Positions 552-29,091 of a stretch of DNA of 64,000 bases are shown in pieces. A program made the position numbers and the translations under genes. The stretch spans positions 12,544-76,543 of the forward strand of contig CAZKUA010000004.1 in NCBI GenBank assembly GCA_964555845.1, in the 5' to 3' direction. This DNA comes from an uncultured Candidatus Peribacteria bacterium. GTDB lineage: Bacteria; Patescibacteriota; Gracilibacteria; BD1-5; UBA2023. The notes under the pieces are model-generated. The model saw only the letters and a list, made by a program, of their open reading frames with translations. It made no database searches and was not told the origin of the DNA. The stretch's first letter is position 1; every line of letters begins with the position of its first letter.

Positions 552-629
552 CTAAAATTTGCATAATCTGCATAATTATATTACAATGTATCTAAATAAA
601 AACAAAATTAACAATTAAGTTAGATCAAA

Positions 630-2072
630 ATGCCTTCTCACGAATCATTTTCAAATAATAGCGAATTATCTCAAATATTGGAAATTAGTAAGCCAACTCC
701 AGAACAGCTAATAAGAGCTAGATTAAGAGCTTTAAATTCAATAAATTTCCTTCAGAAACATACACAAGTAGAAGATAAAGAAAAACAAAATTTTTTAATA
801 GATTTTGATATTGATAAAATATGGGAAAATTGATTTGAAGAACCAAAAAAAGAAACTTATTCCAAACCAGAAATGAAGACTAAAACTGAAGAATTAGGTG
901 AAAAAGAAAAATTGCAACTTTATGGTAATTTATCTAATTTAGCATATTCAGAATTTAAGACAATTCAAAATAAGCAAGAAAATTATAATACTCAAAATCT
1001 GCAGATTTCTTGAATAAAATTAGATCCACTAAATTATCCAAATATTAAAAAAATATTTACTGACAAAAAACCTGATAATCTAAATCCAGATGAAGAATTT
1101 TTGTATAATTATGTGAATAATGATAAAAATAAAATACTGATAAATATATTTAATAATCCCACCTCTGTAGCTTGAGATGTTAGAGATATATTAAGATTAG
1201 CCTGATTCAAAAGTGATATAAATGATATTAATTGAAATTTAAAATATGCTTTAAATGATGAATATTGAGTAATTTCTGATGCTTGAAATGGTATTTCTGT
1301 TTGAAATAATACCAAAGGAAATGAAGATTCCAAAAAAATAAAATTACTACAAAATTGATTTGAAGCTCTAAGAAAAGAAAAAATCAAAGAAAATTGAAAT
1401 GTTTTAGAAAGTATAAACTGAAATTTTGAAATACTTGATTATTATCCAAATGAAACCAAAAATGATAAAGTTAATTCTTGATTTTGAGCTATTTGTCTGA
1501 AAGATAAAACTACTTGAGAAAAAGTATTTGCAATTAGATGAACAGAAATTGATGATTGGTGAGATTTAAAAGCAGATTGAAAACTTTTGATTAAGTGAAT
1601 ACCCGAAAATCAAACAAAAGATATGATTGATTTTGTAGAAAGAAATATAACTAAATGAGAAAAATTTAATATTACTGGACATTCTCTCGGTTGAGCTTTA
1701 GGTCAAATACTCTCTGCCATGTATAAGGATAACAAACAAGAAACTTATACATTTAATTCCCCTGGAGCTAAAGAACTAAAATCAAATATAGAAGAAAATG
1801 ACCCATATTTTGCAAAATTTGATAAATTCGAGTATAATAAGAGTAAGAAAGAAACTTGAGAAAATATTACAAATGTAAAAGCAACTGCTTGATTGACTAT
1901 AATAGCTAATCTCTGAGAAGATATATGAGACAATGAAATTCTTTTAAAGAATTTATGGAGTCATTGAATAAGGGATATGATAAAATATATAAATAATTTA
2001 GATGAAAATAGTGAGGAGTTGAGAAAAAAAATTCACGAAAAACCTTCTGCTAAAAATAATATAAATGATTAA
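630..2072 (+). CDS. class-3 lipase-like alpha/beta hydrolase (480 aa)
   Basis: ATG at 630 and TAA at 2070, with the frame checked codon by codon under code 25. Nucleophile elbow GHSLGGA at 1677-1697, with the second Gly encoded by TGA. It is preceded by VFAIRGTE, which is typical of the lipase_3/DUF2974 family. Confidence 0.8.
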
Positions 2073-2092: not shown

Positions 2093-3004
2093 ATGTCTGA
2101 AAAACAAATAGATACATATGACGAAAATGCTAGCTCTTCAAATTGAGAATCAAGAGCTAATGATGTAAAAAATATTCCTAGCGATACACGAGAGATACTT
2201 TTTATAGGCTGATATATTAAGCCCTTTGATTATTATAAATCAAAAGAAGAAAAAGTGAAAGAAATTATTCTTAGTAGGACTCTTGATAAATCAATAAAAG
2301 AATGACATTATGAATGATGAATTGATGTTAAATATATTTGAGAAGGTCTTTATTTAGTTAAAAGTATAAAAAAATGAAATATAACTTTTTATTCTGATAA
2401 AGATTGAAAGCCTGTTTTTTCAATTTCATGAATAAGAACTGATTCTTTTATTAAAAATTGAAAAGCACTCGAAGATTTAGGATATATTGAAAAAAAAGAA
2501 GGCGATACTTATAATATGTATAAAATAGATTGATATAAAGAGTGAATTGATTGAAAAAAAGAGCCTATTTTATGAGAACAGATAAAAATTGATAATATTC
2601 AATATTATAAAATATGGAAAAATATTCTTTTTCAATCTGACATTTATAGTAAATTTTTTCTATTAAAAGATTGAAAACCTATTGAAAGAAAATTACTCAC
2701 TTATTTCATTGAATGATGATCCTTCAAATTCGAAGACCTTGAAATTTTCAGACAAAAATGACTCATAACTCCAGAAGATTTTAATTATTGAATTCAAGAA
2801 ATGAAAAAAGTATTAGTTTCTCAATGTGGTGACTCAAGACTTATAAATCTAAAATGACTTGACTGAAAAACTTCTTGAATAAAAGAGAGTGATTTAAAGA
2901 AATACATGGAAAAAAAAGAATATTGAATATCTCCAGAACTAGCTTTAGAATGTTATAAGGTTTTGCCTAAGGAAATGAGGGATTTGAGCAATAAAAATGA
3001 CTAG
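2093..3004 (+). CDS. hypothetical protein (303 aa), co-oriented immediately downstream of the lipase gene
   Basis: ATG at 2093 and TAG at 3002, an uninterrupted code-25 frame with many TGA codons. No recognised domain. Confidence 0.6.
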
Positions 3005-3025
3005 AAATTTTTTCTAGTCATTTTT
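2993..3025. terminator. bidirectional hairpin shared by two convergent genes
   Basis: Perfect inverted repeat AAAAATGACTAGAAA / TTTCTAGTCATTTTT with a 3-nt loop. It carries an A-run on one side and a T-run on the other. Both convergent CDS end inside it. Confidence 0.6.
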
Positions 3026-4954
3026 GTACCTCTCCACAAACTCCAAAATCTCTCAAATATCCCTAGTTTTATGTACGCTATCAAGTATCTTGTAAAAACC
3101 TATCTCATCATTTCTTTTTATATCTCACAAATATAGAGGAGAAAATCAATTTTTCAGTAATAATAAATCAGTTAAAATATCAATCGTTCTTCCATTTCAA
3201 TCTCAAAAAGGATGAACTACCGAGAAATCAGTTAAAAATAGAAGAATATCACTAATTCCTTTTTTTGAATCATTAAAATTCAAGACTATTTCTTGAATTC
3301 ATTTTTCTACTTTGTGATGTTTGAAATACACATTTTTATTTGGATTAGTTTTAGAAATAAGCTCAATATTTCTATATTCTCCAGGTACCATAGAAATAAA
3401 ATCTCTTCAATTAATATCTCTTGCTTTTTGGATAAATCAATTTGGATATAGATTTTTGTGAAGCTCTTTTATTATAGTATCACTTAATTTAAAAAATGGA
3501 TTTGAAATAATCTTTTTTTGACAAAAGTTTATAACTTTTTCAGTATCAGAGTTATATCAATTAAAGATTAGCTGATGTTTATCTTCTGGAGTTCTTAGAA
3601 GAGCATTTTTTAAGTAAGATAAAGTATTGTTGTATACTATTTTTCTGACATCATAATCTGAAAGTTCTGGGCGGATGTTTATGAAATTTTCAGAAATTTT
3701 TATATCTAATTTTCTTTGATATGTATTTTCTCAATTTTCTTTTATTGAAATGTATTGATTTAGCACCTCATTATATCATCAGTGCTTTTGCATAAATCCG
3801 ATAACAAGATATAAATATTGTTCATATTCATGTTTTACCTGCTCTACTTTTATTCCTGCTTGTTCCATGATTTTTCTACCTCACCATGAAGGATCTTCTA
3901 GAATATAATAAACTTCATCAACTCAAAAATCCACCAATGCTTTTGCACAATTATTACAAGGTTCCATAGTAACAAATAAAACTTTTTTACACTGTTTTCA
4001 TATATAATTTTGTCATTTATTTATAATATCTATCTCTGCATGAAGAGTGTGATTATTGTCTGTAACCACTCTATTTTGTCATAATATTTCTGTACTATCA
4101 TCTACAATCAAAACAGCTCAAATAGGATAATTTCAACTATTATATGTTTCTAGGGCCAGATTTATAGATTTTTGGAGATATTGTTCTATTTCAGTTATAG
4201 ATTTTTGTATATAAATATATTTTTCTTTTTTTAATAATTTTCAATCTTTAATATAATCTTTTATATTTTTAATTATTAATACAATTTCATTGTCTTTAAG
4301 TTTTTCAAACATTTTAAAAATCATAAATGAAATCATATTCTTTCATTTTTGCGTTAAATTTATTATTTCTTCTACTCAATAAAGGTGTGATTCTTTTACT
4401 TCTGTGGTATAGGAAATATTTAATTCTTCTAATGATAAAATTATATTTTCATTAATATCGTTTATTGTGTATCAAAGATTTTTTCTTAATATAGATTCAA
4501 TAGAATTAATATCTTTATTTACTATAATTATAGTTCATCAATAATTTAATTTTTTATAAACTATTTTTAATAGTTCTTTTATATTTCAAATAGAACGAAA
4601 AACAAAAGATAATATTATTATATCTGATCTTGGTAAATCTATATTTTCAATTAATTTATTATAAAAAATAACATTTTTATTTGTATTATTTTTTTTAAAT
4701 TCTTCTATTAATTCATATGAAGACTCAATATAATTATAAACATATTTTTTATTTAATTTTTGAAAATTAGCTATAATTTTATTGGCTATAATTCAATTTC
4801 CTGCTCAAATATCAGATATAATAATTTCCTCCTTGTCTAATTTTTGTATTATGTCAAAAATTGTTTGAGCTATAATATCTTTTTGATTTGTATTATTTAT
4901 CGAATCAAAATAAATATTTTTACTTGAATTATATAAATTAGGTATTCAATCCAT
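3014..4954 (-). CDS. three-domain fusion protein: SAM-methyltransferase-like + CMP/dCMP(TadA)-type zinc deaminase + Fic domain (646 aa)
   Basis: The frame was checked line by line: ATG at 4954, TAG at 3016-3014. MTase motif I DIGAGNG at 4793-4813. Deaminase motifs HAE at 4034-4042 and PCNNC at 3947-3961, preceded by YPIGAVLI. Canonical Fic motif HPFGDGNGRTID at about 3188-3214, with both Gly of HPF-G-D-G encoded by TGA. Confidence 0.8.
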
Positions 4955-4957
4955 TTT

Positions 4958-5671
4958 TTAAAATAGTTTAGAAGTAGAGTATATTGTCTGTTTATTTTTC
5001 ATATCTATTATTTTTTGGCTTAAATTATTGTTATGAAAATCACTAATGAATCATGCTATTTCTTCTAAAATATTATTTTTTTGTATATTCTCCTCATAAT
5101 AAGTTGTAATATAATACATAAATTTAGAATCTTTGAATCTTATATCTAACATGTTTAGTAATAAAACTCAATATTTAGTACATTCTAAATCACAAATTAT
5201 AGATACAACAGTTAGATTGCTATCACTAAATGGATGTACTCTCAGAAAATCAAAATAATATTTTAATATATTTGCTATTGTTTTATTTTGTATGAGATTA
5301 TATTCATTTGTAAATTTGTACAAATCTTTTTCTATGTCACATTGTTTTGACCAGTAGGATGTAGGTATTTGTGGGTTATAATCATGTAATCTCCATTCTC
5401 ATGGTATATTTTCATAACGAATTCATTCGCGTTGCACTATTATTTTAAAGTCTTTCGGATAAAGTAATCTATGAAGTCATTTCATAAAGTCAATATTTAA
5501 ATAACCTATTTTTGAATAATTTTCATAAATATAATCTGATAATATTTTCATGTGACCTTCAAAAGACTTTTTGGCTTGTTCTAGATTTAATTTACCGCTC
5601 AAAATCCCTGCTTCAAATTTTGGAGCGAGGGTTTCGGTTACGGTTAATTTTATAGTTTCTTTGTTAAGCAC
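4958..5671 (-). CDS. Fic/DOC-family-like protein with a degenerate active-site motif (237 aa)
   Basis: ATG at 5671, TAA at 4960-4958, frame checked. It contains GEWR and HPFSDSNLTV where HxFx(D/E)GNGRxxR is expected. Only 3 nt separate its stop from the start of the downstream fusion gene. Confidence 0.65.
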
Positions 5672-5680
5672 GAATAGTTA

Positions 5681-8023
5681 TTAATTTTTATAAATTTTAA
5701 CGTAATCAATAATATCATTCCATTGGGATGTTTTGTCATTTTTCGATCAAATATATAACTCATTTCAGTAATTTGTTATAATTCATCAACTTGTAGTCGT
5801 ATTTCATGTAAGAATTAGATTATTTCAATCTAAAATAGATAAATTAGGAATTCAATTTTCAAATTTTGAGATTACTTTATAGAATTTATTGTTATCAGTA
5901 ATTTTTGTTATTATATCAGAATTATTTATAATAGATCTTGTATATAATGATCAAATATTAGTAAAATACAAATACAATCATCAATTATACATATTTAAGT
6001 TTATATCACTTGTTCATCCCGAAAAATTAAATAATTTATATGTTCCACTCTTTCTTTCTATTGTATTCAACGCCCCACCCCTCACACTCATCTCAATACT
6101 AAAACTATCCCCCAAACTCAATTTACTCAAATCATATTTCATATAATTGCTCTGAAGAGTACTCACTGCAATTCCTCTTTCTCCACTAATCATCGACATA
6201 AAGGAATTAGGTATATTCAAATAATAAATATTAGAATTATTTAAAGAAGAATAACCAGCCGAATTAATATATGAATTAGTTCAAACATCATTCTTATAAT
6301 TCCCTCAATCATATTTAGTACTCGCCACATAATCAGTTCTCGGTTCTAACTTCTTGTTATCAACAGTAGGAGAGTTACTATACATATACAAATCTCAGAT
6401 ATTATCGTATGGAGCATAGGCTACAAGATTCTCATCCTGACATCCAAATCATAGGAATGATTTCATTCAAGTTTCACACTCTAGATTAAATCCAGCTGAA
6501 GCTCTTTTTAGTCATATAATTGCAGATTCACTTATTGAGGTTCAATTTGAATTTAGTGTTGCCCGACCTGTACAATTTTGTTTTCACTCGATAATATTCA
6601 CACACAATCTCACAGCATAATTGTTACTTCAATTCCATGTAATTCCAGTCTTATCTATAACAGATAAAGTAGCCAAAAATGTCCCAGAATAACTATCTTC
6701 AACTCCATTTCCAGTTCACTTTATCTCAATACTCGTAGCTCACATATTTTCTACTTTAATTCCGAGCTTTCCAGATATACTTCTATCAATACTTATAATA
6801 TTCGGCAATATCCCTGAATTAAATTTTAATACAGGAGTTTCTATTTCGAGAACTTTTCCTGTTCATACATTTCAAGTATCAGATGATGTAGGAATAGCAG
6901 TTCATGTTACATTTAGATAAATTGGTTTTTCTCAAGTTTTCACTTCCATATATGAAACTCAGTCTACAACAGTAAATCAAGTTCAAATATTAGTATCTGT
7001 AAATAATGGAGTAGTACCTCAGGTCTCATTCTCTTTTGTTACCTCTAATTTTCAATCAATCAGTGATACACTTCCAGAAGAAGCATTTGTAGTCATTCCA
7101 AATACTGTTCATCTCACGGTTGCTGCTAGGAATTTATTTTTCAATTCAAATGAAGAGTTATCTTCCAGTTGCGGAGCTTTTACCCAGATTTCACCAAGAG
7201 ATAAATTAATCATTACTTTTGTGAATAAATTACTGTCATCAGTGTATTCTAAATCAGAAAAATCAAGAATTGATTCTCCAGAAGCTGACCCAAGTCTTAG
7301 CTCTGTCCCATCTGATAAATTAATTATCACAAGTCATCAAGTTTGCACTTTTATAGTATTTCATTTTTCTATCTCATAATCTAGAATATTTGTAGAAGTA
7401 ATCTCACCACCATTCCCATCTTCAATTTTCACACTTCCAGAATAAACTGATATTTTTCAGGTTAGTTTGATTTCGTATGGATTGTAAGGCAAGAATTTAC
7501 TCTTATTAGTCACAAAATTAGGTCCAGCATATTCTTTAACCAGTCCAGCTAGCTCCATTCTATTTCATCCAATATCTCAGACTACATAGCTAAAATATTC
7601 TCATTTTTCATTTAGAACTGTTGCTATATTGTATCCAGAATTTCCATCAAGTCTTTTTCAGAATGCATAATAATTTTTTGTTTGTTCATCTTTAAAAGGA
7701 TATCAGACCTTATCTTTAGAAAGAGTTTTTTGAGTCAAAAATCAACTTACTCAAAAAGCCCCAGACCCAGAATGCGCATAAGTTCATTTTTTGTCATAAT
7801 ACTGTCTGTTTCAGCTTGGGTCAGGAAAAGTCTTGTTTTGAGTGTAGCTAGTCTGAAACAGATTATATATTGCAGTCAAATCTGCTACACGAGAAGTATT
7901 ATATTGATTAGATTGATAATTCGTAGCAAATGTAAATCATACTATTGCGAGAACTGCGATTATGGCAGTGGTGGTGATTATCTCCACTAGAGAAAATCAC
8001 TTTATTGACTTATTCATATACAT
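5681..8023 (-). CDS. large type IV pilin-like (prepilin N-terminal domain) protein with a FecR-like and possibly a LamG-like domain (about 780 aa)
   Basis: The frame was checked line by line and ends at TAA 5683-5681. N-terminus M(YM)NKSIKG|FSLVEIITTTAIIAVLAIV is the class III signal / N-methylation motif. The Gly at -1 is TGA at 7997-7999. The FecR-like segment is LSDGTELRLGSASGESILDF...GEIWVKA...ATVRGTVFGM. The start is ambiguous among ATG at 8023, 8017 and 8053. Confidence 0.75.
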
Positions 8024-8161
8024 ATAAGTAAAGAAATAGTGACGACAGTTTAGCATATTTAGATAAGGAGTCAAATTTTTTTCACAAAAATTTGATTATT
8101 TTAGTATTTTTTATATAATTTGCTTTATTGAAAATCGTTCGTTTAATTTATTTTAAAAAAC

Positions 8162-11100
8162 ATGAAAATTATTAAAAAATTTTTTGTTTATATTATTGTT
8201 ATTTCACTTGTATTTAATCAGTCTTTTTATAACATAGTTAATGCCTCAGCATCGCTTAGTATTCAGCTTTTTTTGCTTAATTGAGTTTCTAGTAATTTAT
8301 CTGTTAATCCCGGAGATTCTTTTAAAATTTCTCTTGAATGAATTAATGATGGAACAGATACATTAACGAGTGTTTATTGAAATGTATATTTTTCTGATAA
8401 TAATAGTTTCACTTATAATACGAATTTATTTACTCTAATAAATTTTGCAACTATTACAAATCCTATTCCAGGGACTGATTATACGGCTTGAAATTGACTT
8501 TATACCCAGATTACTGGCTGATCGACAACGACATTAATCGCCTGAAAAAAACCAAAGATTTCATGAACAGCATTAAATAATTTCACTGCTAATTCTAATA
8601 TTTCTACTTATTCAAATACCATTTATTGAAAATTTAGCGGACTAGATCCGGCTCTAAATCCAATAAATTCTACTATAAGTCAACTTACAATTTATGCGAA
8701 TGTAAGACCTCATATCACAGATTATTATTTTGAGAAAGCTGATGGATCAGAGGTTACAAATCAAATACAATGAGCCAATGCAGAAGCTATAAACTTGGTA
8801 TTAAAAGTAAAAGATTATAATGGTTGTGCTAATATTGATGGGTGAGCCGTTGTAGCTAATTTAAGCCAGATTTGATTAAGTTCTTCTGAAAGTCTTACAT
8901 ATAATAGTTGTGATGGGGACGGTAAGACTGCTATATTTAAAAGAACTTGAATTACAACTACAGCATCACTTAGTACTTATAATTTTAATTATTCTCACTT
9001 TACTGCTACTGATGAAGATGGTAATGTAAATACTCCAACTGATGCTAATACAACTTTTGATGATGAAGATAAAAAAACTGATTTTCCACTTACTGTGATA
9101 TCAGCCGGAGCACCGGGCGTTAGTAATTTATGAATTACAGATGATTATATAGGATGACCAGCTGAGACTTCTACTACTTTTAGTTTCTCTGGAAGTCAGG
9201 ATGGGGAATACAAGGTGGCATTATGAAGCGATTGAACTTGTAATTGATGAACTACTTTACTTGATTGGACAGCGACATGAACTTATGTTGCCTGAGACTC
9301 TGCTAGTTTTGTAATTAATTCAGCAAGTCTTAGTGATTGAAATAATAATATCTATGCTTGTTTTAGAAATGTAACAAGTGAGATATGATCTACAACTCAA
9401 ACTATTATTAAGGATACTACTAATCCCACCATAAGCTCTCTCCAAGTGAGTCCCGCGAGTGTAGTTACAAATGATAGTAATGTAAGTTTTATTTGTAGTG
9501 AAGCAGGTTATTATAAGACAAGTATTGGATGAAATATAATTACGAATTATACCATAACTACTGCTGGGGCTACTAATTCATCAGTAATTCCAAATGCTAA
9601 TTTATTTGAATGAGATAATATCATTACAGTTTATTGTAAAGATGACGCCTCAAATGAGCTAACTACAACAACAAATGTAGTCAAATCTACTGCTCCACCA
9701 AGCCTAAATTGAGCTGTAACTTCCTTTTCTGATACTGATATTGATTATGATTGACTTAACTGATCAGATTTAAATTTTACTTGGGATAACACAAATGCTG
9801 TATCTTATAATTATTTTGAATCATATAGACTCTATCTTCTTCCATCTAATATTACACTAAATACTAGCTCTCATACTTATATTAAGATATTGTCCGATAA
9901 AAATCTAGCAACTTGGACTTGAGATTCTACCATTACAAAAGACTCTACAAATACAGACTTAGTTAACTGAGCAAGCTATCAAATGTGTATTGCAATTATG
10001 TGAACAAACTGACAATTATGAGAAGCTGGATGTAGCGATGCCTCAGCATTAATTACAGATGTAGTACAACATCCAAATGTACTTAGTGCCAGATTTAATT
10101 CTTCAACCAATTTAGAACTTACTACAGATGCAACTCTTGATACAGATATAGCTACTCATAGCGGAGAATTAGTATCTTTTATAGTGTGATCTACTACATA
10201 TACCGGAACTGCCATAGCTTCAGTTGATTCACAAAAAATTAATATTACAATCCCAGATTTATGAAATCTCTGAGCCACTTGAACAGGATTATTACTGTTT
10301 ACTTGAGCTATTCATTCTTTTTCTTGAGGATTTAATAATTATTTTAGCTCAGGAAGTCTTATAATTACTGACTGACAAGCTCCTACAATTGCTGGATTTG
10401 TAAATAATACGGCATCTCCTTATGGCTCTTTTTTCTCTTGATCTATAAATGTATGATTTACTTTCGCTGAAGCCATGAGAGCCTCTGGATATACCAAAAT
10501 TACTTTTGATAGAACTGCCTGAAATGCCTCAGCTCAAAAAATTTATGAAATAACCGATTCTTCTAAGCTAACTCCTGGAGTTCATAGTGTAGACATTAAT
10601 TTGGTATCTCTATGATTAGTCTCAGGTACTACTTATGATATGAAAATTACAGGACAAGATTTGGCTGGTAATTCTGTCACTTCTGGAGCTATTACTGTTA
10701 AATTTGATAATGTTTGACCGGTTATAATGAGTCTTAGCCCTATTTGAATTTCTTGAATTACTGATCCATTTTTTAATTGGCTTGCGACTACTGATGATGG
10801 CGGGAATTGATCTGGAGTTGGAGGTTATACTCTAAAAATATTTTCTGGATCTACTTGTACAACTCTATTATCTCAAACTGGAATTACAGACCCAATAACA
10901 CTGCAATATCAAGTACTTCTAGCTGATATGAGAGATTATGCTTGGAATATAGTCGCTTATGATAATATGTCTAATTTATGAACTACTTCGGCTTGTGATA
11001 GTTTTTCAGTAAATACTTCTATTCCAGTAATATCTAGTTTATCTATAAAAAATAATTGAGGAACCCCTATAACTTATACAAAAACAGCTGATACTATCAA

Positions 11101-14100
11101 AATCACAGCAAATGTAGTTAATTCAAATACTGATAATATTTCTATTAATCTTTCTTCTCTGACAGGAAATTGATCTCACACAAATGTAGTATGTAGTGCA
11201 CCTGGAGCTGGAATATCTTGTACTTATGTAGGGTGAGTAGTGACTTATACTTTTGCTGTATGATTTGCCGGAGCAGTAACTAATTGATTAAAATGGACAA
11301 CTCTTACTACAAATAATACAGATGGAATAAATACTCAAAATTCAAGTATTTCAGTTACTGTAGATAATACTGCCCCAGCTATAGTTGGAACTCCTATTAC
11401 TGCTCCAATAAGTTCATCAGTTTGGTGATGAACTACTCAGACTATAGTCCGGACTGCCGGGTCTATAACTGATAATTATTCTATTGCATACATGAAATTA
11501 GAATATAGTAATGATAACTGATGAAGCTGGAATGATATAGCTACAGGATCTAATCTAGGTTCTTATAACTGGGATATATCAGCTCTAGCTAGTGATACTG
11601 ATTATAAAATAAAATTAACAGCTTTTGATAGGGTAGATAATAATACTTCTACAATTTCCGATGCTTTTACTATAGATAAGGTTGCTCCTGCAGTTGCTGC
11701 TGATACAATTACTACTCCAAATGGGTCAAATATCTATAAATGATGACAAGCTCTTAATATTGCCTGGGATCAGACAAAAATAACTGACAATATAGCGCTA
11801 GCATCGAGTCCTATAAAACTCGAATATACCCTAGATAATTGAACCGCTTGGACTCAAATAGCAACAGGTGAAGCAAATGACGGGACTTACGCTTGGACAG
11901 TACCTTCGGTGAATTCTTCACAAGTCAAAATAAGACTTACAGCCACAGATAATGCTACAAATATAAATTTAGATACTTCTGATACTACTTTTATAATAGA
12001 TTCTACACTTCCAACTGTAGCTCTTACTTTTGCTGGAGCTGGATGATCTACTCCACAAAATGGAAAATATATCAATAATAGCTGATTAGATATAACTGCG
12101 ACAACTTCTGATTCCTATCTAGATAGAGTAATGTATAAATTAGAAAATATTACAGATACTCAATATTGGCAACAATCTACAACTGGATGGCTTGGAATAG
12201 AAAATTGGAATGATTTATGTATAGAACCTCAAGCTCTCTGAAATGGTTGAACTTGTGCAAATATAGCCGAAATTGCAACACTCGCAGGTATACTGGGTAA
12301 CAAAGATTATAGACTTACTATTAAGGCAATTGATGAAGCCTGAAATGAAAAAACCTATAATCCAGTCGATTATATTGGGGATGTTGTGAGTCCAAATTTA
12401 TCTATAACTACAGCAAATAATTATTATTTTAGTGGAAGTATAAATATAGCAGGTACTGCAAGTGATGCTCTGTCTGGACTTAGCTCGACTAATATTGAGA
12501 TAAAAAAATGAGCCTTATGGTGGAATGGGTCTGACTGGGTAGTTCCTCAGACGGTATTAGTTACTTCTGGGACAGCTGGGAATTGGAATTATAATTTTAC
12601 ATCGCCTGGAGCTGATGCGGACGCTACCAATTATAATGTAATAATCACGACTCATGATAGTGCATTTAAAACTAACAATAATACAAGTTCAAATATTAAT
12701 ATAATAAAAGATTCATCAGGACCAATTATTGATAATAGTGTATTTACCTTTGATACATCAGGAATTAGAAAATGATGAACTGCAATGACTATAACATGGA
12801 ATCCGGCGCTTATTACAACCATCTGAGCTTCACTAAATGCTAATTCTATAAAACTTGATTATAATTTTACAGGGTCTATAATTCCAATAGCTTCTTGAGA
12901 AGCTAATGATGGAAGTTATAATTTTACACTTCCAGCAGGAGTAGATAGTCTAACTGCAAAATTTATAATTACAGCATATGATAATTTATGAAATATTTCA
13001 AATGTTGTAGCGTCGTCTGATTTTATAATTGATAGTCTGCCTCCTACTGTTAGTACTGTTGAGACCCAGGATTTTAATACAGATGGTCAGATTGATTGAT
13101 TTATAGTTACCTTTTCTGAGAAAATAAATAATTGATCTGTAAATGTGGCAGAATTCAGTGTGTCAGATTGAATCACTCTTAATAATTGAAGTCATAGTAT
13201 ATATGATGCTGGAAATTATACAAAGCTTGAGCTGTATTTTAATGCACAATATTGAGACACTTCATCAATTCCTACGCTTAGTTATAATTGAGTGGCTATT
13301 GAGGATATTGCTTCAAATAAACTCGCTAATTTTACTAATAAGGCATCTGTAGATAAGGCTTCTCCTAGAATAACAAATGCTGAGATATATGATACTAATT
13401 CAAATGGAAAAGTAGACCAAATTAAAGTATATTTTACAGAAAATATAACCTCCACTACTGACATATGAAGTTTTACTTTAAATAATGTCTTGCCAGGAGC
13501 TTCTATATCAGGAGCTAGTGTGTCTGGAAATGTATGAACTCTGTCATTAGTAGAATCTTCAAATTATAATACTTCACCAGATGGAATGACCATTACCTTC
13601 TCTAATAATGGAGCATGGAAAGATATAAGTCCTGCCCTAAATGTCGCTGGAAATAGAGCAAATATAGCCCTAATAGATAAAGCTTCTCCTGTGAAAATAT
13701 CTGCTATAACTACTGATTCTAATTCAAACTCTAAAATTGATAGACTCGATATTACATTTTCTGAAGATATTGTCTGAAATATTGACTGAGATATTACTGT
13801 TTGAAATCTGGCAGCCGGATCATCTAAATGAGCCTCATCAGTTGTCTCTAATGTACTTAGAATTGCAATAAATGAAACAAGTGATAATAATGATACGGCT
13901 CAAATTCCAACTTTTGCATATAATTGAGCTAATTTAAAAGATAGCTCTAATAATCTAGTAGCAAATATTGCGAGCTTTAGTTTGAGTGATTGAGTAAAAC
14001 CAAAACTATTATTAAGAGAGACGGTCGATTCTAATTGAAATGGAAAATTAGATAAAATTAAAATAACTTTCTCTGAAACCCTAAATAATAATGTATGAGC

Positions 14101-15769
14101 AATAGTAATAAATGTAGCATGATATGTAGTGAGTTCTTATTCATCAAGCGCTAATTTATTATATGCTAATCTAGATGAACTAGATATTTCCGATACCTGA
14201 GCTACACCAAATGTTCAAATAACTTCAAACACTACACTTTGAGATACAACAAATAATTTAGTGTTTACAGAGTGAGCGGCAACTGCATCCACAGATAAAG
14301 TATGACCTGTTGTAATTTGAGCTAGATATTCAGCAAATACTGTTTATGTGGATTTATCAGAGAATTATGGAGGAGTACTTGATAATAATTCATTTGTACT
14401 GAGTGGCTCTGCTCTGCCAAGTATTACAAATACGGTATGAGCTGGAAGTCAAGTAACTATAACTCTTAGCTGACCAATTAGTGCTAACACAGAAATCTCA
14501 GCTGCAGCAAATACTGTAGAGGATGGAGCTTGAAATAAACAAGCCTCAACATATTTTATGGTAATTTCAAGCTCACTAATTATCAATGAAGTAATGTATT
14601 CTACAGGTAATACTCAATATATAGAACTTAAAAATCTATGAGCTAATCCTGTAGATCTAACAAATTGGGTAATAGAAAATGGGGGAGGGAATTGAGTAAA
14701 TATTACTGTAACAGCTTGAAATATACCGGCCTGATGATTATTTTTAATTACAAAAACTGGAATAACAGAACTTAATTGAGTTGTGACTGATTTTAATGCT
14801 GGACTTTCACTCGATTTAACTACTCAAAATGATTTAATATTAAAAGATAACTCTTGAAATATATGGGATAGTGTCCAATCTAGTCCGTGGCCAGCTGGAA
14901 GTGGAAGTCTTTGAGTTGCTATGGAGAGAATAAGTTCTCCAGGAAATTGATTAAATTCTTCTTCTTGGTATTCTGCAACTACAAATAATTGACTTACAGC
15001 TTGATTTCTTGGGACTCCAAAAAATCCTAATGTATTTGATTCTACTATTCCGACTATAAATAGTTTCTCGCCTGCAGATAATACTCTATATCCTGTTGGA
15101 TGACTAAATGTAGTATATAACTATTCTGATAATGTAGCCGTGGATGATAGCTCGTATACATTTGCATTAGAAAAATGGAATGGAGTTAACGCTTGGAATG
15201 ATGCTTCCGCTGGAATAGCTAATTCTTCAGTTAGCGTAACTTCTGCCACATTTACTTTGGCTAATCTGACTTTTTGAAAATACAAAGCTTCCTTTACGAT
15301 TGATGATACCAGTGGAAATACAGTTTCAAAAGATATAATTTTTTATGTTGATAAATTCGAATTTACTATTTCAAATTCAAGTATTAATTTATGAGTTATG
15401 GAAGTTGACAGCTTAGTGAGTGCTACGCAAAATGCGACTATTACAATAAAAACGCTCGGAGCTGGATTTGATTTGAATATCGGATGAGATACTACGCTGG
15501 ATGCTTGAATTAATTCAATTCAAAGTTGGAATACTCTGTATTGATTTTGAATTGATTATGAAGCGACTAATTCTGCAACACCTAAAGTATTTTGAACTAC
15601 CGATGCTATCCCAAAAGTACTAGAAAGTAATCCTACTTGAAGTATTGATTGAAACTGAAACCAGAAAACATTCACATATAATGTAAAATATCAATGAAAA
15701 ATACCTTTCATACAAGTGGCTGGAAATTACAGTGCAAATACAAGTTATACTGTGGATATTAATTATTAG
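8162..15769 (+). CDS. giant secreted surface protein (2535 aa) with Ig-like repeats, four Ca-binding-like modules and a lamin-tail (LTD) domain
   Basis: ATG at 8162 and TAG at 15767 are in the same frame. I translated the whole frame by eye and spot-checked many lines for TAA/TAG. The track ORF 13586-13777 lies in this frame. Signal peptide MKIIKKFFVYIIVISLVFNQSFYNIVNA. LTD signature LIINEVMYSTGNTQYIELKNLGANPVDLTNWVI at about 14566-14760. Composition is rich in Thr, Ser, Asn and Gly. Confidence 0.8.
13036..14090 (+). repeat. four tandem ~105-aa intragenic modules inside the giant ORF
   Basis: Recurring cores: LPPTVSTVETQDFNTDGQIDGFIVTFSEKI, ASPRITNAEIYDTNSNGKVDQIKVYFTENI, ASPVKISAITTDSNSNSKIDRLDITFSEDI and VKPKLLLRETVDSNGNGKLDKIKITFSETL. 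They recur at a period of about 320 nt. Confidence 0.7.
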
Positions 15770-16431: not shown

Positions 16432-16506
16432 GATTTCTCGCTAACGCTCGAAATGACAGAGTGGGGCACTAGATTACATTTTGGCTCGGAATGACAAGGG
16501 GCGGAG
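16432..16506. repeat. solo copies of the GGATTTCTC...TCGAAATGACAG repeat family
   Basis: GATTTCTCGCTAACGCTCGAAATGACAGAGTGGGG is followed by GGCTCGGAATGACAAGGGGCGG. Both match the right end of the GIY-YIG cassette at 21086-21160. Confidence 0.55.
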
Positions 16507-18445
16507 TTTTTCTTCATTTTTTTCTTCATAAATTATGATTATCAAGATATCTTATAAATGGAGAAGGTGGATCTCATTTAAGGTTTCATTTCGCATCTAT
16601 TACATTAGCAAGTAGAATTTCTTCTTCCATATTTTTTGGTTTGTCATGAAATGTTATATATTCGATATCATCTTTTATACTTAGACTAAAATTTCTTAAT
16701 TTCTCAAAACTACTTATTTTTTTATTTATTTCAATATTTTCTTCATTATTAGATATTCATTTTCTAGCTAGAAATAAATTTTGTTTAATAACCTCAAGTC
16801 TTTTTTCTATTTCTTTTGTCTTTTTTGTTAATTTATCAAGAGTTTCCACCAGATGTTCTCATCCAACTTGAATATTTTGTTCTTTAATTAATCTCTCTGT
16901 AACTCTTCATTCTACTTGATTTTTCTTAAGAATTTTAAATAAGCTTTCTATAACTTTCTTAGCGCTTATGTTATTGTCAATTCACCGCACAAAAACTATT
17001 ATCTCATCTCATCAAATGGATATATTTATTTTATTTTCTGGATAAATTCTTTTTAGTTCACCCTTTAATTCCCTAATAATATTTTGGAATTTTATCGTCA
17101 TATTATCGCCTGATTTTAGAAGTATTTCTTTAGCAGTAAGGAGTCAGTTACTCCACATATTAATTTTGTCGGAAAAATCCTTCATATTAATACTTCACAT
17201 ATCCTTTATATCTATGTAAAATAATTGTCATTTTTGATTTATTTTACTGTAAAATACTCATTTTTCTAAAGAATTTTTATAATTGTTTTCTGATAGCTGT
17301 CTGATTTTTTTTGGATTTTTTATTTTACCCTGTTCAATTCAACCTATAGCCTCTTTATAATCTGATAATTCTTCTGAAGTTAAAATTTCTCATTTTTCTA
17401 AATCATCTCTTTTGATATACGGTGCTATAAATTCGGCTCTGGCAACATAAGAATCAAAAAGAATTTTAAAATCATTATAAAAATCACAATTAGTTGGAAT
17501 TTCTTTTTTTCTCACTTTTGTAATAAAACCTATATTAATATCTCAATTTGGATAAAAAATTAAAGTTTTTTCTTGTTTTTTGCGTCAATTTAGTTTAAAT
17601 TCTCTTATCAAATTATTATTTTCCACATAATACATTTCTCCATCAAAAAGATATTTCCTTTTTACTTTTGACTCATTAAAATATTTCTGAAATAATTCCT
17701 TCTCTTTAGCTACTATTTCTTCTTTTGTCAAAAGTCATTTTACTCATTCTCTCTCAAGTGATAGTCTCGCGAAAGCAATATTGTGTACAAAATCTTCTTG
17801 AGTGCGTCAACTAATTATTGAACTTGTAGAGGCTACTTTTATAATATTTGAAATATCTACTCAAGATGATTTATCCTGTTTTTTAATTCAAGATTTTTTC
17901 ATATTTTTAACCAAAATATTTTTCATAATTTTAGCTAACTCCTCTTGATTTATTGCTGAAGTTCTAGACATTTTAAATACAAAATTTTTCCAATCATTCC
18001 AGATAACTTTTATTTCTGGATGATTTTTTTTGACTGTAGATTTAAATTCATTTACCACTTTATCAGTAAAAGATTGACTCGTAGTGTCATTTAGATCCTT
18101 AATTCACTTAAATATTATAATTCAGAATTTATCTCATCTGTTTAAATTTGTTAAAATCCCATAAATAGGATTATTTTTTTCTATTCTTCTAATTAAAAGT
18201 AGCTTTTCTTTTTTTGAAATTTCCTCTCAATTATCGATTTTTGATAGAATTTGTCACAATTCCTCTCAACTTAAATTTGGTATTTTCTTCAAATAATTAT
18301 TATTTTTCACAACTCCAGATTGCTCATAAATATCTCAAACTAGTTTTTTTACCTTCAGAACAACACCAGAGACACCATAAAATACATTCTGACTTAGAAT
18401 TTTTCTTCTATCTGTATTTATTTGTGTATTTGTATTTAAAGACAT
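16469..18445 (-). CDS. hypothetical protein (658 aa), predicted helical/coiled-coil rich
   Basis: ATG at 18445, TAG at 16471-16469, frame checked line by line. No recognised domain. The last ~12 codons are supplied by the repeat element at 16469-16506. Confidence 0.6.
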
Positions 18446-18576
18446 TTTTACTAGATTAACTTCTAATTAATTTAATTTTATCATATTTATCAAAATAATG
18501 CAAAAACTACGAAAAAGTTTTTGAAAATCAAAGATTTTGGATATAATGAGGAAAATTATTAGTTAATTTAGAAAAT

Positions 18577-29016: not shown

Positions 29017-29091
29017 AGCCCTATAGTTCATCGGTTAGAATTCAGGATTCCAAATCCTGCGAGGTCGGTTCGATTCCAACTGGGGCTGCCA
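29017..29091 (+). tRNA. tRNA-Trp (anticodon CCA)
   Basis: I folded a cloverleaf by hand. Acceptor AGCCCTA/TGGGGCT (one G-U pair). D stem GTTC/GAAT. Anticodon stem CAGGA/TCCTG with loop TTCCAAA. T arm with TTCGATT loop (one mismatch in the stem). 3' CCA is encoded. Confidence 0.85.

What the first reader, a model, noticed from the sequence alone, without database searches (positions are those of the whole stretch)
3014..5671. Two-gene module: degenerate Fic protein plus a methyltransferase-deaminase-Fic triple fusion
CDS 3014-4954 combines three domains in one 646-aa polypeptide. The first is a class I SAM-methyltransferase-like domain (DIGAGNG, LNYGGTIII). The second is a TadA/CDA-type zinc deaminase (HAE...PCNNC). 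The third is a Fic domain with a fully canonical HPFGDGNGRTID motif. The gene immediately upstream ends 3 nt before this one starts. It encodes a second Fic-fold-like protein whose motif has decayed to HPFSDSNLTV, losing the Gly, Gly-Arg and final Arg needed for nucleotide binding. Deaminases and Fic AMPylators are each used as toxins or effectors, and a methyltransferase could provide self-protection or substrate targeting. I am not aware of a described system with this three-domain architecture paired with a pseudo-Fic partner. I found no obvious (S/T)xxxE(G/N) inhibitory helix in either protein. The module sits next to a lipase gene cluster and the pilus/adhesin genes, so a role as a host-directed effector in an epibiotic CPR lifestyle is conceivable.
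Basis: partly seen in the sequence, partly recalled or inferred. Interest (0 to 1): 0.8.

Follow-up and report, generated by a model that had tools for sequence, protein, structure and literature searches.

The report
Multi-Fic, deaminase, methyltransferase enzyme module
The two genes are real and belong together: they are a trimmed copy of an uncharacterised multi-enzyme system that joins several unusual Fic domains, a TadA-like deaminase and a methyltransferase, occurs in both Gracilibacteria-type and proteobacteria-type genomes, usually sits beside a large surface-protein gene, and has no known function.

Summary
On the minus strand, read with TGA = Gly, 3014-4954 encodes a 646-aa methyltransferase + zinc deaminase + Fic fusion. 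Gene 4958-5671 encodes a 237-aa Fic paralogue and stops 3 nt before it.

Two details need correcting:
- The fusion's HPFGDGNGR core is canonical, but the second arginine of HPFx(D/E)GNGRxxR is absent in 45/45 relatives.
- The partner's motif has not decayed. HPFxDSNxT is conserved in 41 relatives, including standard-code, high-GC genomes.

The architecture is not unique. A deaminase-Fic core, usually followed by this methyltransferase, occurs in about 30 other proteins. It is often fused to the partner-type Fic, to a third Fic type, or to a guanine-N2-type methyltransferase. The fusions show the two window genes work together.

The module follows a large surface-protein gene in 6/6 Gracilibacteria-type loci and 4/5 proteobacteria-like loci. 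There it also comes with a ~180-aa membrane protein and with TA, Abi or integrase genes.

It is not housekeeping TadA, not a FicTA pair, and not a listed defence system. I found no paper describing it. The function is unknown. My best guess, at 0.4, is a nucleotide-centred conflict or envelope-linked modification system rather than a secreted CPR effector.

The parts
3014..4954 (-). geneB: 646-aa fusion MT1 - deaminase - FicB (code 25; 29 in-frame TGA = Gly)
   Evidence: ORF and translation; Pfam; local domain HMMs MT1 357, Deam 235, FicB 262 bits; identical copies in L085 and L086
4202..4954 (-). MT1 domain (aa 1-251), class I SAM methyltransferase, motif I DIGAGNG at 4793-4813
   Evidence: Methyltransf_2 25.5 bits against cut-off 22.3. 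The stand-alone orthologue in L084 is 44% identical and scores 46.8 bits on Methyltransf_12. In the model of orthologue P0181 the nearest structures are histamine N-MTase, BioC and natural-product MTases.
3764..4189 (-). Zinc deaminase domain (aa 256-397), HAE at 4028-4042 and PCNNC at 3947-3961
   Evidence: PF00383 62.7 bits. Best PDB sequence hit is B. subtilis TadA at 45 bits, then guanine deaminase at 40 bits. Foldseek on the model of the 64%-identical P0002 gives TadA/ADAT2 at target-normalised TM-score 0.7-0.79. H, E, P, C, C are invariant in 14 relatives.
3017..3691 (-). FicB domain (aa 422-646), motif HPFGDGNGRTID at 3179-3214, flap-region PGEYR at 3371-3385
   Evidence: Pfam Fic 32.7 bits against cut-off 24. 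FICD is the best solved relative. Motif census: Arg at position 9 in 45/45, Arg at position 12 in 0/45.
4958..5671 (-). geneA: 237-aa FicA paralogue (GTG start), motif HPFSDSNLTVVS at 5201-5236, PGEWR at 5390-5404
   Evidence: Pfam Fic 22.2 bits. PADLOC Fic models E 6.5e-9. It is 34% identical at E 8e-39 to a stand-alone FicA gene in proteobacteria-like L089. It is fused to the deaminase-Fic core in P0006, P0014, P0015 and P0181 among others.
5681..8017 (-). 778-aa prepilin-like surface protein. It has the class III signal KGFSLVE, a FecR domain and, by eye, a LamG-like C-terminus. It is the first gene of the operon, and its stop lies 9 nt before the geneA start.
   Evidence: FecR 34.5 bits, N_methyl 18.4 bits. 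Orthologues sit in the same position in L001, L002, L083, L084, L088 and L085.
2093..3004 (+). 303-aa gene of unknown function, convergent on geneB; possibly linked to the module
   Evidence: A 30%-identical relative (E 7e-11) sits in the same convergent position in L001. No Pfam hit.

Best explanation
**Shown:**
- geneA and geneB are the cytoplasmic enzymes of a reduced copy of a conserved multi-component system found across phyla.
- The system's core is a TadA-fold zinc deaminase followed directly by a Fic domain (FicB). FicB keeps His, Asp, Asn and the first Arg but never has the second Arg.
- A small-molecule-type SAM methyltransferase (MT1) and a second, Arg-less Fic paralogue (FicA, which is geneA) accompany the core, either fused to it or adjacent.
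- Fuller versions add a third and a fourth Fic type, a guanine-N2-type methyltransferase, a ~180-aa polytopic membrane protein and an upstream large surface protein.
- In the window the operon is pilin-like gene, then geneA, then geneB.

**Inferred mechanism:**
- The proteins form one complex.
- FicB is the transferase. It moves a phosphoryl-linked group from a nucleotide donor onto a target hydroxyl. Because the gamma-phosphate-binding Arg is absent, the donor or the binding mode is not that of classical ATP-dependent AMPylation.
- The deaminase and MT1 act on a nucleobase or nucleotide, either the donor or the transferred adduct. They do not act on tRNA-Arg or on genomic DNA.
- FicA keeps the catalytic His and the flap motif but lacks the phosphate-binding Gly and Arg. 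It serves as a structural or regulatory subunit, or carries a divergent activity.

**Inferred role:** a conflict-type system (phage or mobile-element defence, or exclusion) coupled to the cell surface. In Gracilibacteria it has become fixed behind a pilin-like gene.
For: Fusion network:
- 44 of 52 proteins that hold the deaminase have Deam-FicB in that order.
- Counts of longer forms: Deam-FicB-MT1 10, with added FicA 6, with added MT15 3, FicC-FicA-Deam-FicB-MT1 2.
- geneA-type Fic is fused to the core in P0006, P0014, P0015, P0181 and others.

Motif conservation:
- FicB (n = 45): H 44/45, N 45/45, first Arg 45/45, second Arg 0/45.
- FicA (n = 41): H 41/41, S 38/41, T 38/41.

Compact core:
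- P0002 model: pLDDT 87.7, pTM 0.74.
- P0181 model: confident over residues 1-625, with a disordered linker before FicA.

Operon:
- The gaps are 9 nt and 3 nt.
- A pilin-like gene sits upstream in 6/6 Gracilibacteria-type loci whose outer flanks all differ.
- Non-homologous surface proteins with signal peptide-like N-termini (judged by eye, no predictor run) and Ig-like repeats sit upstream in L093, L098, L091 and L099.

Conflict signature in standard-code loci:
- RelB/ParE inside the Fic array of L089.
- AbiEi/AbiEii in L098.
- Mu transposase, integrases, resolvase and RadC around L091.
- A DUF4143 ATPase in L091 and L099.
- Decayed fragments of components in L091 and L099.

The family is rare: 38 representatives at E <= 1e-30 among 1.8 billion proteins.

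MT1 is of small-molecule type.

tRNA-Arg(ACG) is reported to be lacking in CPR (PMC8629427).
Against: - No activity, donor or target is known for any member.
- Within Gracilibacteria the genes look vertically inherited and well conserved (51-65% identity, fixed position). That fits a core function as well as a defence function.
- No mobile-element or defence genes were noted near the window copy (only some neighbours were screened).
- PADLOC gives only generic Fic-level matches of at most 77 bits.
- tblastn of P0181 finds nothing in 72,556 plasmids or 50,697 phages.
- The recurrent surface-protein neighbour fits a modification pathway for that protein at least as naturally as it fits defence.
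- The membrane protein is missing from the window.
- Complex formation between geneA and geneB is inferred from fusions. It was not modelled.
Confidence: 0.4

Rival explanations
1. Surface-protein modification pathway. The module decorates the co-encoded pilin-like or Ig-repeat surface protein, or another envelope target, before export. FicB would transfer a phospho-linked group from a nucleoside-diphosphate donor, as AnkX does with CDP-choline. MT1 would tailor the head group and the deaminase would process the nucleotide by-product or donor.
For: - The gene order 'large surface protein, then membrane protein where present, then Fic genes, then Deam-FicB' recurs in two distant lineages with non-homologous surface proteins.
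- The second Arg, which binds the ATP gamma-phosphate (PMC8401265), is absent in 45/45 FicB domains. That fits a diphosphate donor.
- MT1's structural neighbours include phosphoethanolamine N-methyltransferases and histamine N-MTase.
- Fic-catalysed phosphocholine transfer is established for AnkX (PMC4177925).
Against: - No modification site or donor is known.
- AnkX needs an extra CMP-binding domain, and I did not test for one here.
- The deaminase is closest to TadA and guanine deaminase, not to dCMP deaminase.
- Three or four Fic paralogues and a guanine-N2-type methyltransferase have no obvious place in this scheme.
- L089 shows no surface-protein gene within 10 kb.
- Adjacency could reflect shared expression only.
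Confidence: 0.22
2. Lineage-specific RNA modification enzyme. The TadA-like deaminase and the methyltransferase(s) would edit and methylate a tRNA or rRNA, with the Fic domains serving as RNA- or partner-binding modules.
For: - The best sequence and fold matches of the deaminase are tRNA adenosine deaminases.
- Some relatives carry a Methyltransf_15 (RNA cap guanine-N2) domain with a DPPW motif.
- Conservation within Gracilibacteria is strong.
Against: - The NCBIfam TadA score is 48.9 against a cut-off of 150.
- tRNA-Arg(ACG), the bacterial TadA substrate, is reported to be lacking in CPR (PMC8629427).
- MT1 resembles small-molecule methyltransferases.
- The family is rare and patchy, sits in mobile or TA-rich regions, and shows decayed copies. 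That is unlike a housekeeping modification enzyme.
Confidence: 0.12
3. geneB is a secreted, host-directed toxin or effector of an epibiotic CPR cell, and geneA is a pseudo-Fic immunity or chaperone partner.
For: - Deaminase and Fic domains are common toxin modules. MafB19-deam scores 53 bits.
- The genes sit next to pilus-like and large surface-protein genes.
Against: - No signal peptide was seen by eye and no secretion or trafficking domain hit in Pfam for either protein.
- The same domain set and the same FicA partner occur in standard-code, proteobacteria-like genomes.
- FicA is fused in cis to the supposed toxin in many relatives. That is unusual for an immunity protein.
- Sequence conservation is high for a host-interaction effector.
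Confidence: 0.08
4. A classical class I FicTA-type toxin-antitoxin pair, with geneA neutralising geneB.
For: - The geometry is that of a tight two-gene operon, with the upstream gene overlapping or abutting the Fic gene.
- Fic toxins are usually paired with an upstream inhibitor (PMC8401265).
Against: - geneA is a full 237-aa Fic-fold protein, not a small three-helix antitoxin.
- No conserved (S/T)xxxE(G/N) motif is present.
- The Arg that the inhibitory Glu would pair with is absent.
- The pair is often fused into one chain.
Confidence: 0.04

Closest known systems
Fic/Fido AMP-transferases (FICD/HYPE, VbhT, SoFic defence protein)
   Same: The Fic fold is present. The 9-residue core HPFxDGNGR is present in geneB, with His, Asp, Asn and the first Arg conserved. 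A flap region (PGEYR) is present. FICD is the best solved relative of the Fic half. SoFic is the best PADLOC hit at 39.6 bits.
   Different: The second Arg of HPFx(D/E)GNGRxxR is never present (0/45). There is no inhibitory helix. The domain is always fused behind a deaminase. It is accompanied by up to three further Fic paralogues with other motifs (HPFxDSNxT, HPFPDxNGK, HPFxDANGR). PADLOC scores are at generic Fic level only.
TadA / ADAT2 tRNA adenosine deaminases and the related guanine and yeast-type cytosine deaminases
   Same: The HAE and PCxxC zinc site is present. The helix-4 topology with a C-terminal helix is shared. The loop DPSWGG resembles TadA's DPKGG. TadA gives the top sequence and fold matches, at target-normalised TM-score 0.7-0.79.
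   Different: The domain scores far below the TadA equivalog cut-off (48.9 against 150). The N-terminal motif GQNxVxTxN resembles guanine deaminase as much as TadA. The usual substrate tRNA-Arg(ACG) is reported absent from CPR. The domain is fused to Fic and methyltransferase domains.
AnkX (Legionella Fic phosphocholine transferase)
   Same: It is a precedent for a Fic domain that uses a nucleoside-diphosphate donor and transfers the non-nucleotide part. A diphosphate donor would make the missing gamma-phosphate Arg irrelevant.
   Different: AnkX is a secreted eukaryote-targeting effector with ankyrin repeats and a CMP-binding insert. I showed no sequence relationship beyond the Fic core. AnkX has no deaminase or methyltransferase.
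Deaminase and Fic toxin modules of polymorphic-toxin and TA systems (MafB19-type deaminases, Doc, FicT)
   Same: The enzyme folds are the same. MafB19-deam scores 53 bits. The standard-code relatives sit among TA, Abi and integrase genes.
   Different: There are no N-terminal trafficking domains and no small immunity or antitoxin gene. The proteins are large multi-enzyme fusions, conserved in order and partnered with a membrane protein and a surface protein.
Membrane-anchored defence systems with cytoplasmic effectors (Zorya, Kiwa); analogy from my own knowledge, not tested
   Same: The layout is similar: envelope components encoded together with cytoplasmic enzymes.
   Different: No homologous components. 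The similarity is one of layout only.

Membership tests
Fic/Fido domain family (PF02661): geneB | Profile match above the curated cut-off | tested here: met
   32.7 bits against cut-off 24, aa 492-599
Fic/Fido domain family (PF02661): geneA | Profile match above the curated cut-off | tested here: inconclusive
   22.2 bits against 24. However, PADLOC Fic models give E 6.5e-9, paralogy to geneB's Fic gives E 6e-10, and the relative in L002 scores 34.9 bits.
Canonical AMPylating Fic | Full motif HPFx(D/E)GNGRxxR, including the second Arg that binds the ATP gamma-phosphate | tested here: not met
   geneB has HPFGDGNGRTID. Position 12 is D, Y, A, S, V or C and is Arg in 0/45 relatives. The motif definition is from PMC8401265.
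Canonical AMPylating Fic | Nine-residue core HxFx(D/E)GNGR | tested here: met
   Met for geneB. Not met for geneA, which has HPFSDSNLT.
Class I-III regulated Fic / FicTA toxin-antitoxin | Inhibitory helix motif (S/T)xxxE(G/N) in an upstream antitoxin or within the Fic protein | tested here: not met
   A regex scan of 15 family members finds no conserved match. TYYEEN in geneA 190-195 is absent from the orthologues.
TadA (tRNA adenosine-34 deaminase) | Equivalog-level profile score | tested here: not met
   NF008113 scores 48.9 bits against cut-off 150
TadA (tRNA adenosine-34 deaminase) | The substrate tRNA-Arg(ACG) is encoded by the organism | not testable with these tools
   Only 64 kb of the genome is available, and it holds a single tRNA, Trp-CCA. 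The literature reports the gene lacking in CPR including Absconditabacteria (PMC8629427).
CDA-fold zinc deaminase superfamily (PF00383) | H(A)E and PCxxC zinc and catalytic motifs, plus a profile match | tested here: met
   62.7 bits against 25. HAE is at aa 305-307 and PCNNC at 332-336. These residues are invariant in 14 relatives.
Class I SAM-dependent methyltransferase | Motif I GxGxG and a Rossmann-fold profile match | tested here: met
   DIGAGNG is present. PF00891 scores 25.5 against 22.3. The orthologue scores 46.8 against 30 on PF08242. In the P0181 model the fold matches histamine N-MTase at target-normalised TM-score 0.64-0.67.
DNA/RNA exocyclic-amino methyltransferase (restriction-modification-like self-protection) | Motif IV (D/N)PP(Y/F/W) | tested here: not met
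   The motif is absent from the window's MT1 by reading the sequence. It is present only in the separate Methyltransf_15 domain of some relatives (DPPWGG in P0028, P0058 and P0048), and that domain is not in the window.
Catalogued anti-phage defence systems (PADLOC: SoFic, PDC-S04, dCTP deaminase) | Strong full-length match to the system's protein models | tested here: not met
   The best scores are 39.6 bits (SoFic), 39 bits (PDC-S04) and 36 bits (dCTPase), all partial. The proteobacterial relatives reach at most 77 bits. NCBIfam anti-phage dCTP deaminase scores 31.9 against 400.
Uncharacterised 'Deam-FicB' multi-Fic family (defined here) | Deaminase directly followed by an Arg2-less Fic, with MT1 and FicA fused or adjacent | tested here: met
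   Local HMMs give MT1 357, Deam 235 and FicB 262 bits for geneB and FicA 344 bits for geneA. The domain order MT1-Deam-FicB is unique to the window among 203 proteins sampled.

The most novel reading that the evidence does not exclude
The two genes are the enzymatic part of an undescribed envelope-linked system conserved from Gracilibacteria to proteobacteria. A large surface protein and a small polytopic membrane protein are coupled to a cytoplasmic machine. That machine is built from up to three or four distinct non-canonical Fic paralogues, a TadA-fold deaminase and one or two methyltransferases. It would make and transfer a modified nucleotide-derived group. The purpose would be either a new kind of Fic-based post-translational modification of surface proteins or a surface-triggered immune response.
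Probability: 0.3. Interest if true: 0.85.

Novelty: new variant of a known kind. Interest (0 to 1): 0.62.

Why it matters
Fic enzymes, CDA-fold deaminases and SAM methyltransferases are each well studied. I found no described system in which they are obligatorily joined. I also found none that uses several different Fic paralogues, all lacking the gamma-phosphate Arg, in one chain of up to 1,135 aa.

If the chemistry is worked out, several things could follow:
- a new Fic donor or adduct;
- a new substrate class for TadA-like deaminases, which are of practical interest as base-editor scaffolds;
- a new link between surface proteins and cytoplasmic nucleotide chemistry.

For CPR biology, it marks a conserved, lineage-fixed operon behind a pilin-like gene. 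That gives a concrete and testable handle on pilus or surface biology in organisms that cannot be cultured. The standard-code relatives make the experiments feasible without recoding.

Tried and rejected
- **GTDB genome scan.** The tool chose the generic Fic motif as its pattern. 79 of the 80 loci (L004-L082) are unrelated Fic proteins. Only L003, on the same contig as L001, is a relative.
- **JGI metagenome scan.** I used a family-specific alignment. It returned 4 weak loci that match only the deaminase (L094-L097), and none was useful.
- **Structure prediction of the window protein.** I modelled the correctly translated orthologues P0002 and P0181 instead. Model coordinates and PAE are not available, so I could not inspect active-site geometry or domain contacts. 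No geneA-geneB complex was modelled.
- **PADLOC.** Only generic Fic and deaminase similarity. I rejected membership of SoFic, PDC-S04 or the dCTP-deaminase defence system.
- **Plasmid and phage collections and viral structure library.** No counterpart of the fusion.
- **Pfam on accessory proteins.** Nothing for the membrane protein or for the 268-aa and 301-aa accessory proteins.
- **Literature searches.** Four searches found no description.
- **Housekeeping TadA.** Considered and rejected.
- **Class I FicTA.** Considered and rejected.
- **Restriction-modification-like DNA methyltransferase protection by MT1.** Considered and rejected.
- **A code-25-specific tRNA function.** Considered and rejected, because the family also occurs in standard-code genomes.
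- **TYYEEN in geneA as an inhibitory helix.** Rejected, because it is not conserved.
Full report
**1. What is in the sequence**

With the standard bacterial code the window holds only 8 kb of ORFs of at least 100 aa. Reading through TGA gives 79 kb. Both genes of the finding lie on the minus strand.
- geneB is 3014-4954, 646 aa, with 29 in-frame TGA codons.
- geneA is 4958-5671, 237 aa, with a GTG start and 5 TGA codons.

TGA = Gly can be shown directly. I aligned geneB to four orthologues from standard-code genomes. Of 100 aligned TGA positions, 53 face Gly (background 6%) and 1 faces Trp. TGA supplies the glycines of DIGAGNG and HPFGDGNGR, and the window carries tRNA-Trp(CCA).

The geneA stop is followed by 3 nt and then the geneB ATG. 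Upstream, a 778-aa gene ends 9 nt before geneA. An independent assembly contains identical copies of all three genes, and a second contains geneB. The long ORF is therefore not an assembly accident.

**2. Domains**

Pfam gives the following for geneB:

| Region (aa) | Family | Bits | Cut-off |
|---|---|---|---|
| 24-148 | class I methyltransferase (PF00891) | 25.5 | 22.3 |
| 255-351 | CDA-type zinc deaminase | 62.7 | 25 |
| 492-599 | Fic | 32.7 | 24 |

- The methyltransferase call is secured by a 44%-identical stand-alone orthologue that scores 46.8 bits on Methyltransf_12.
- geneA falls just below the Pfam Fic cut-off (22.2 against 24). It matches PADLOC Fic models at E 6.5e-9. It is a paralogue of geneB's own Fic domain (30% identity, E 6e-10). 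Its relatives pass Pfam.

**3. Motifs: two corrections**

- *geneB.* HPFGDGNGR is canonical over the nine-residue core (definition in PMC4177925). The full AMPylation signature is HPFx(D/E)GNGRxxR. Its last Arg binds the ATP gamma-phosphate and pairs with the inhibitory Glu (PMC8401265). geneB has Asp there. Among 45 distinct domains of this type the position is never Arg, while His (44/45), Asn (45/45) and the first Arg (45/45) are kept.
- *geneA.* HPFSDSNLT is not decay. HPFxDSNxT is conserved in 41 domains (His 41/41, Ser 38/41, Thr 38/41). One of them is a stand-alone gene in a proteobacteria-like genome that is 34% identical to geneA (E 8e-39).
- *Shared features.* Both proteins keep the PGE(Y/W)R flap-region motif. 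No conserved (S/T)xxxE(G/N) inhibitory motif exists in the family. The one match in geneA (TYYEEN) is not shared by the orthologues.

**4. The family**

The word-indexed search found about 18 close relatives. All show TGA read as Trp or are named Candidatus Gracilibacteria. Most are ~395-aa deaminase-Fic proteins that are 53-64% identical to geneB residues 245-646. Some fuse a geneA-type domain in front (P0006, P0014, P0015, P0017).

An exhaustive profile search of 1.8 billion representatives found 38 proteins at E <= 1e-30 and 448 at E <= 1e-10. Many are high-GC, standard-code proteins with the same domains in other orders.

I built local HMMs for each domain type and annotated 203 proteins.
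- The deaminase is followed by FicB in 44 of the 52 proteins that hold a deaminase.
- Counts of the longer forms: Deam-FicB-MT1 10, Deam-FicB-MT1-FicA 6, Deam-FicB-MT1-MT15 3, FicC-FicA-Deam-FicB-MT1 2 (up to 1,135 aa).
- About 30 proteins besides the window's combine deaminase, Fic and this methyltransferase.
- JGI auto-names some of them 'tRNA(Arg) A34 adenosine deaminase TadA/SAM-dependent methyltransferase/Fic family protein'.
- The window's order, MT1-Deam-FicB, is unique in the sample.

These fusions are Rosetta-stone evidence that geneA and geneB act together.

**5. Genomic context**

- *Gracilibacteria-type loci.* All six (the window, L001, L002, L083, L084, L088) have an orthologous ~800-aa prepilin-like protein immediately upstream on the same strand. 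It carries an N_methyl signal, a FecR domain and a conserved C-terminus. Everything further out differs between loci. In L084 the methyltransferase is a separate gene between the pilin-like gene and the deaminase-Fic gene.
- *Standard-code loci.* These have 49-57% GC. L089 lies beside LppC, RsmI and mraZ-ftsL-PBP genes, an arrangement I know from Gammaproteobacteria. In these loci the module sits in same-strand arrays with small Fic genes of a fourth type (HPFxDANGR) and a ~180-aa polytopic membrane protein with the motif QKLADGHxEHGL.
- *Membrane protein.* It has no Pfam match. It also occurs in Gracilibacteria loci L001 and L002 but not in the window.
- *Surface protein in standard-code loci.* In L093, L098, L091 and L099 a large Ig-repeat protein whose N-terminus reads like a signal peptide (by eye; no predictor was run) lies upstream on the same strand. 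It is not homologous to the pilin-like protein. The order 'surface protein, membrane protein where present, Fic genes, Deam-FicB' thus recurs in two very distant lineages.
- *Mobile and conflict genes in standard-code loci.* They hold RelB/ParE, AbiEi/AbiEii, a DUF4143 ATPase, Mu transposase, integrases and resolvase. They also hold broken copies of components.

**6. Structures**

- P0002 (deaminase-FicB, 64% identical to geneB) gives pLDDT 87.7 and pTM 0.74. This indicates a defined two-domain unit with a beta-hairpin flap.
- The deaminase half matches TadA and ADAT2 best (target-normalised TM-score 0.7-0.79), then yeast-type cytosine deaminase. The Fic half matches FICD.
- P0181 (Deam-FicB-MT1-FicA) is confident over residues 1-625, with a disordered linker before FicA (pLDDT 79.5, pTM 0.64).
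- Its methyltransferase matches histamine N-methyltransferase, BioC, natural-product methyltransferases and phosphoethanolamine N-methyltransferases. These are small-molecule enzymes, not DNA methyltransferases.
- No viral protein matches the fusion.

**7. What it is not**

- *Not housekeeping TadA.* The equivalog score is 48.9 against 150. tRNA-Arg(ACG) is reported to be lacking in CPR (PMC8629427).
- *Not a FicTA pair.* There is no small antitoxin, no inhibitory motif and no partner Arg.
- *Not a catalogued defence system.* PADLOC matches stay at the generic Fic level.
- *Not on known plasmids or phages*.
- *Not specific to code-25 organisms.*
- *Not obviously secreted.* Neither protein hit a secretion-associated Pfam family, and I saw no signal peptide by eye.

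**8. Most likely mechanism**

- *Shown.* A conserved core, Deam-FicB, is joined by fusion or adjacency to MT1 and FicA, and is co-transcribed with a surface-protein gene.
- *Inferred for FicB.* FicB is the active transferase, because His, Asp, Asn, the first Arg and the flap are all kept. The universal loss of the gamma-phosphate Arg means it does not bind ATP in the classical way. It may use a diphosphate-type donor.
- *Inferred for the deaminase and MT1.* They act on a nucleobase or nucleotide connected with that reaction.
- *Inferred for FicA.* It lacks the phosphate-binding Gly and Arg and serves as a structural or regulatory subunit.
- *Role.* I favour a conflict-type system (0.4). The reasons are the domain shuffling, paralogue expansion, rarity, decay, and TA, Abi or integrase neighbourhoods in the standard-code loci.
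- *Rivals.* The recurrent surface-protein neighbour keeps a surface-modification pathway close behind (0.22). RNA modification (0.12), a secreted CPR effector (0.08) and a classical TA pair (0.04) are less likely.

**9. Novelty and limits**

All folds are known, and the three-domain architecture already sits in databases under automatic names. Four literature searches found no description of the system. Its combination of several Arg2-less Fic paralogues, a TadA-fold deaminase, one or two methyltransferases, a membrane protein and a surface protein resembles nothing I can name. I rate it a new variant of a known kind, with a real chance (about 0.3) that it is a new kind of system.

Limits:
- No biochemical data exist for any member.
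- The taxonomy of the standard-code relatives is inferred from gene order only.
- Only eleven loci were examined.
- The two collection scans that could have widened the sample failed.

Noticed in passing
window 5681-8017 (-): A 778-aa prepilin-like protein with class III signal KGFSLVE, a FecR domain and the conserved C-terminus ...QWNDIIDYVKIYKN, which looks LamG-like by eye. It is conserved upstream of the module in all six Gracilibacteria-type loci, at only 30-37% identity.
   Followed up: yes
L002 1066-1584 and 2297-2815; L001 9393-9920; L089 1739-2293 and 4713-5255; L091 8006-8560; L093 8755-9309; L098 11206-11778; L099 5706-6287: A ~180-aa polytopic membrane protein family with motifs QKLADGHxEHGL and YKxKIDxxxH. 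It always sits next to Fic genes of this system, in both code-25 and standard-code genomes. It has no Pfam match and is absent from the window.
   Followed up: partly
window 2093-3004 (+): A 303-aa gene of unknown function converges on geneB, with 9 nt between the stops. A 30%-identical relative sits in the same convergent position in L001 (12938-14440, minus strand). No Pfam hit.
   Followed up: partly
L098 1843-4293; L093 5314-7518; L091 3019-6060; L099 2202-5129: A large surface protein with a signal peptide-like N-terminus (by eye) and He_PIG/Ig repeats lies upstream of the proteobacteria-like modules. It is intact in L098 (816 aa) but split into three ORFs in L091 and L099. It is not homologous to the Gracilibacteria pilin-like protein.
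   Followed up: partly
L089 6863-7301 and 8220-8821; L098 7944-9457; L091 1-721 and 18687-22652: RelB/ParE and a second small gene pair, untyped, are inserted within the Fic gene array of L089. AbiEi/AbiEii lies next to the L098 module. Mu-type transposase, integrases and a resolvase flank L091.
   Followed up: no
window 29017-29091 (+): tRNA-Trp with anticodon CCA is the only tRNA in the window. This fits TGA not being read as Trp.
   Followed up: yes
window 624-2072 (+): A class 3 lipase-like protein (GHSLGG; Lipase_3 25.5 bits). It is not conserved next to the module in other loci.
   Followed up: partly
window 8147-15769 (+): A 2,535-aa protein with a signal-peptide-like N-terminus, divergently transcribed from the pilin-like gene. 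Presumably a giant surface protein.
   Followed up: no
window 16469-18466 (-): A 658-aa protein without a Pfam hit contains the string ISIGGDEIIVF, which recalls GGDEF or palm-domain cyclase motifs.
   Followed up: no
P0028, P0058, P0177, P0178, P0048, P0192, P0018 (relatives, not in the window): Some family members carry a Methyltransf_15 (RNA cap guanine-N2 type) domain with a DPPW motif, fused to the Fic or MT1 end. This is a second, amino-group-directed methyltransferase in the system.
   Followed up: partly
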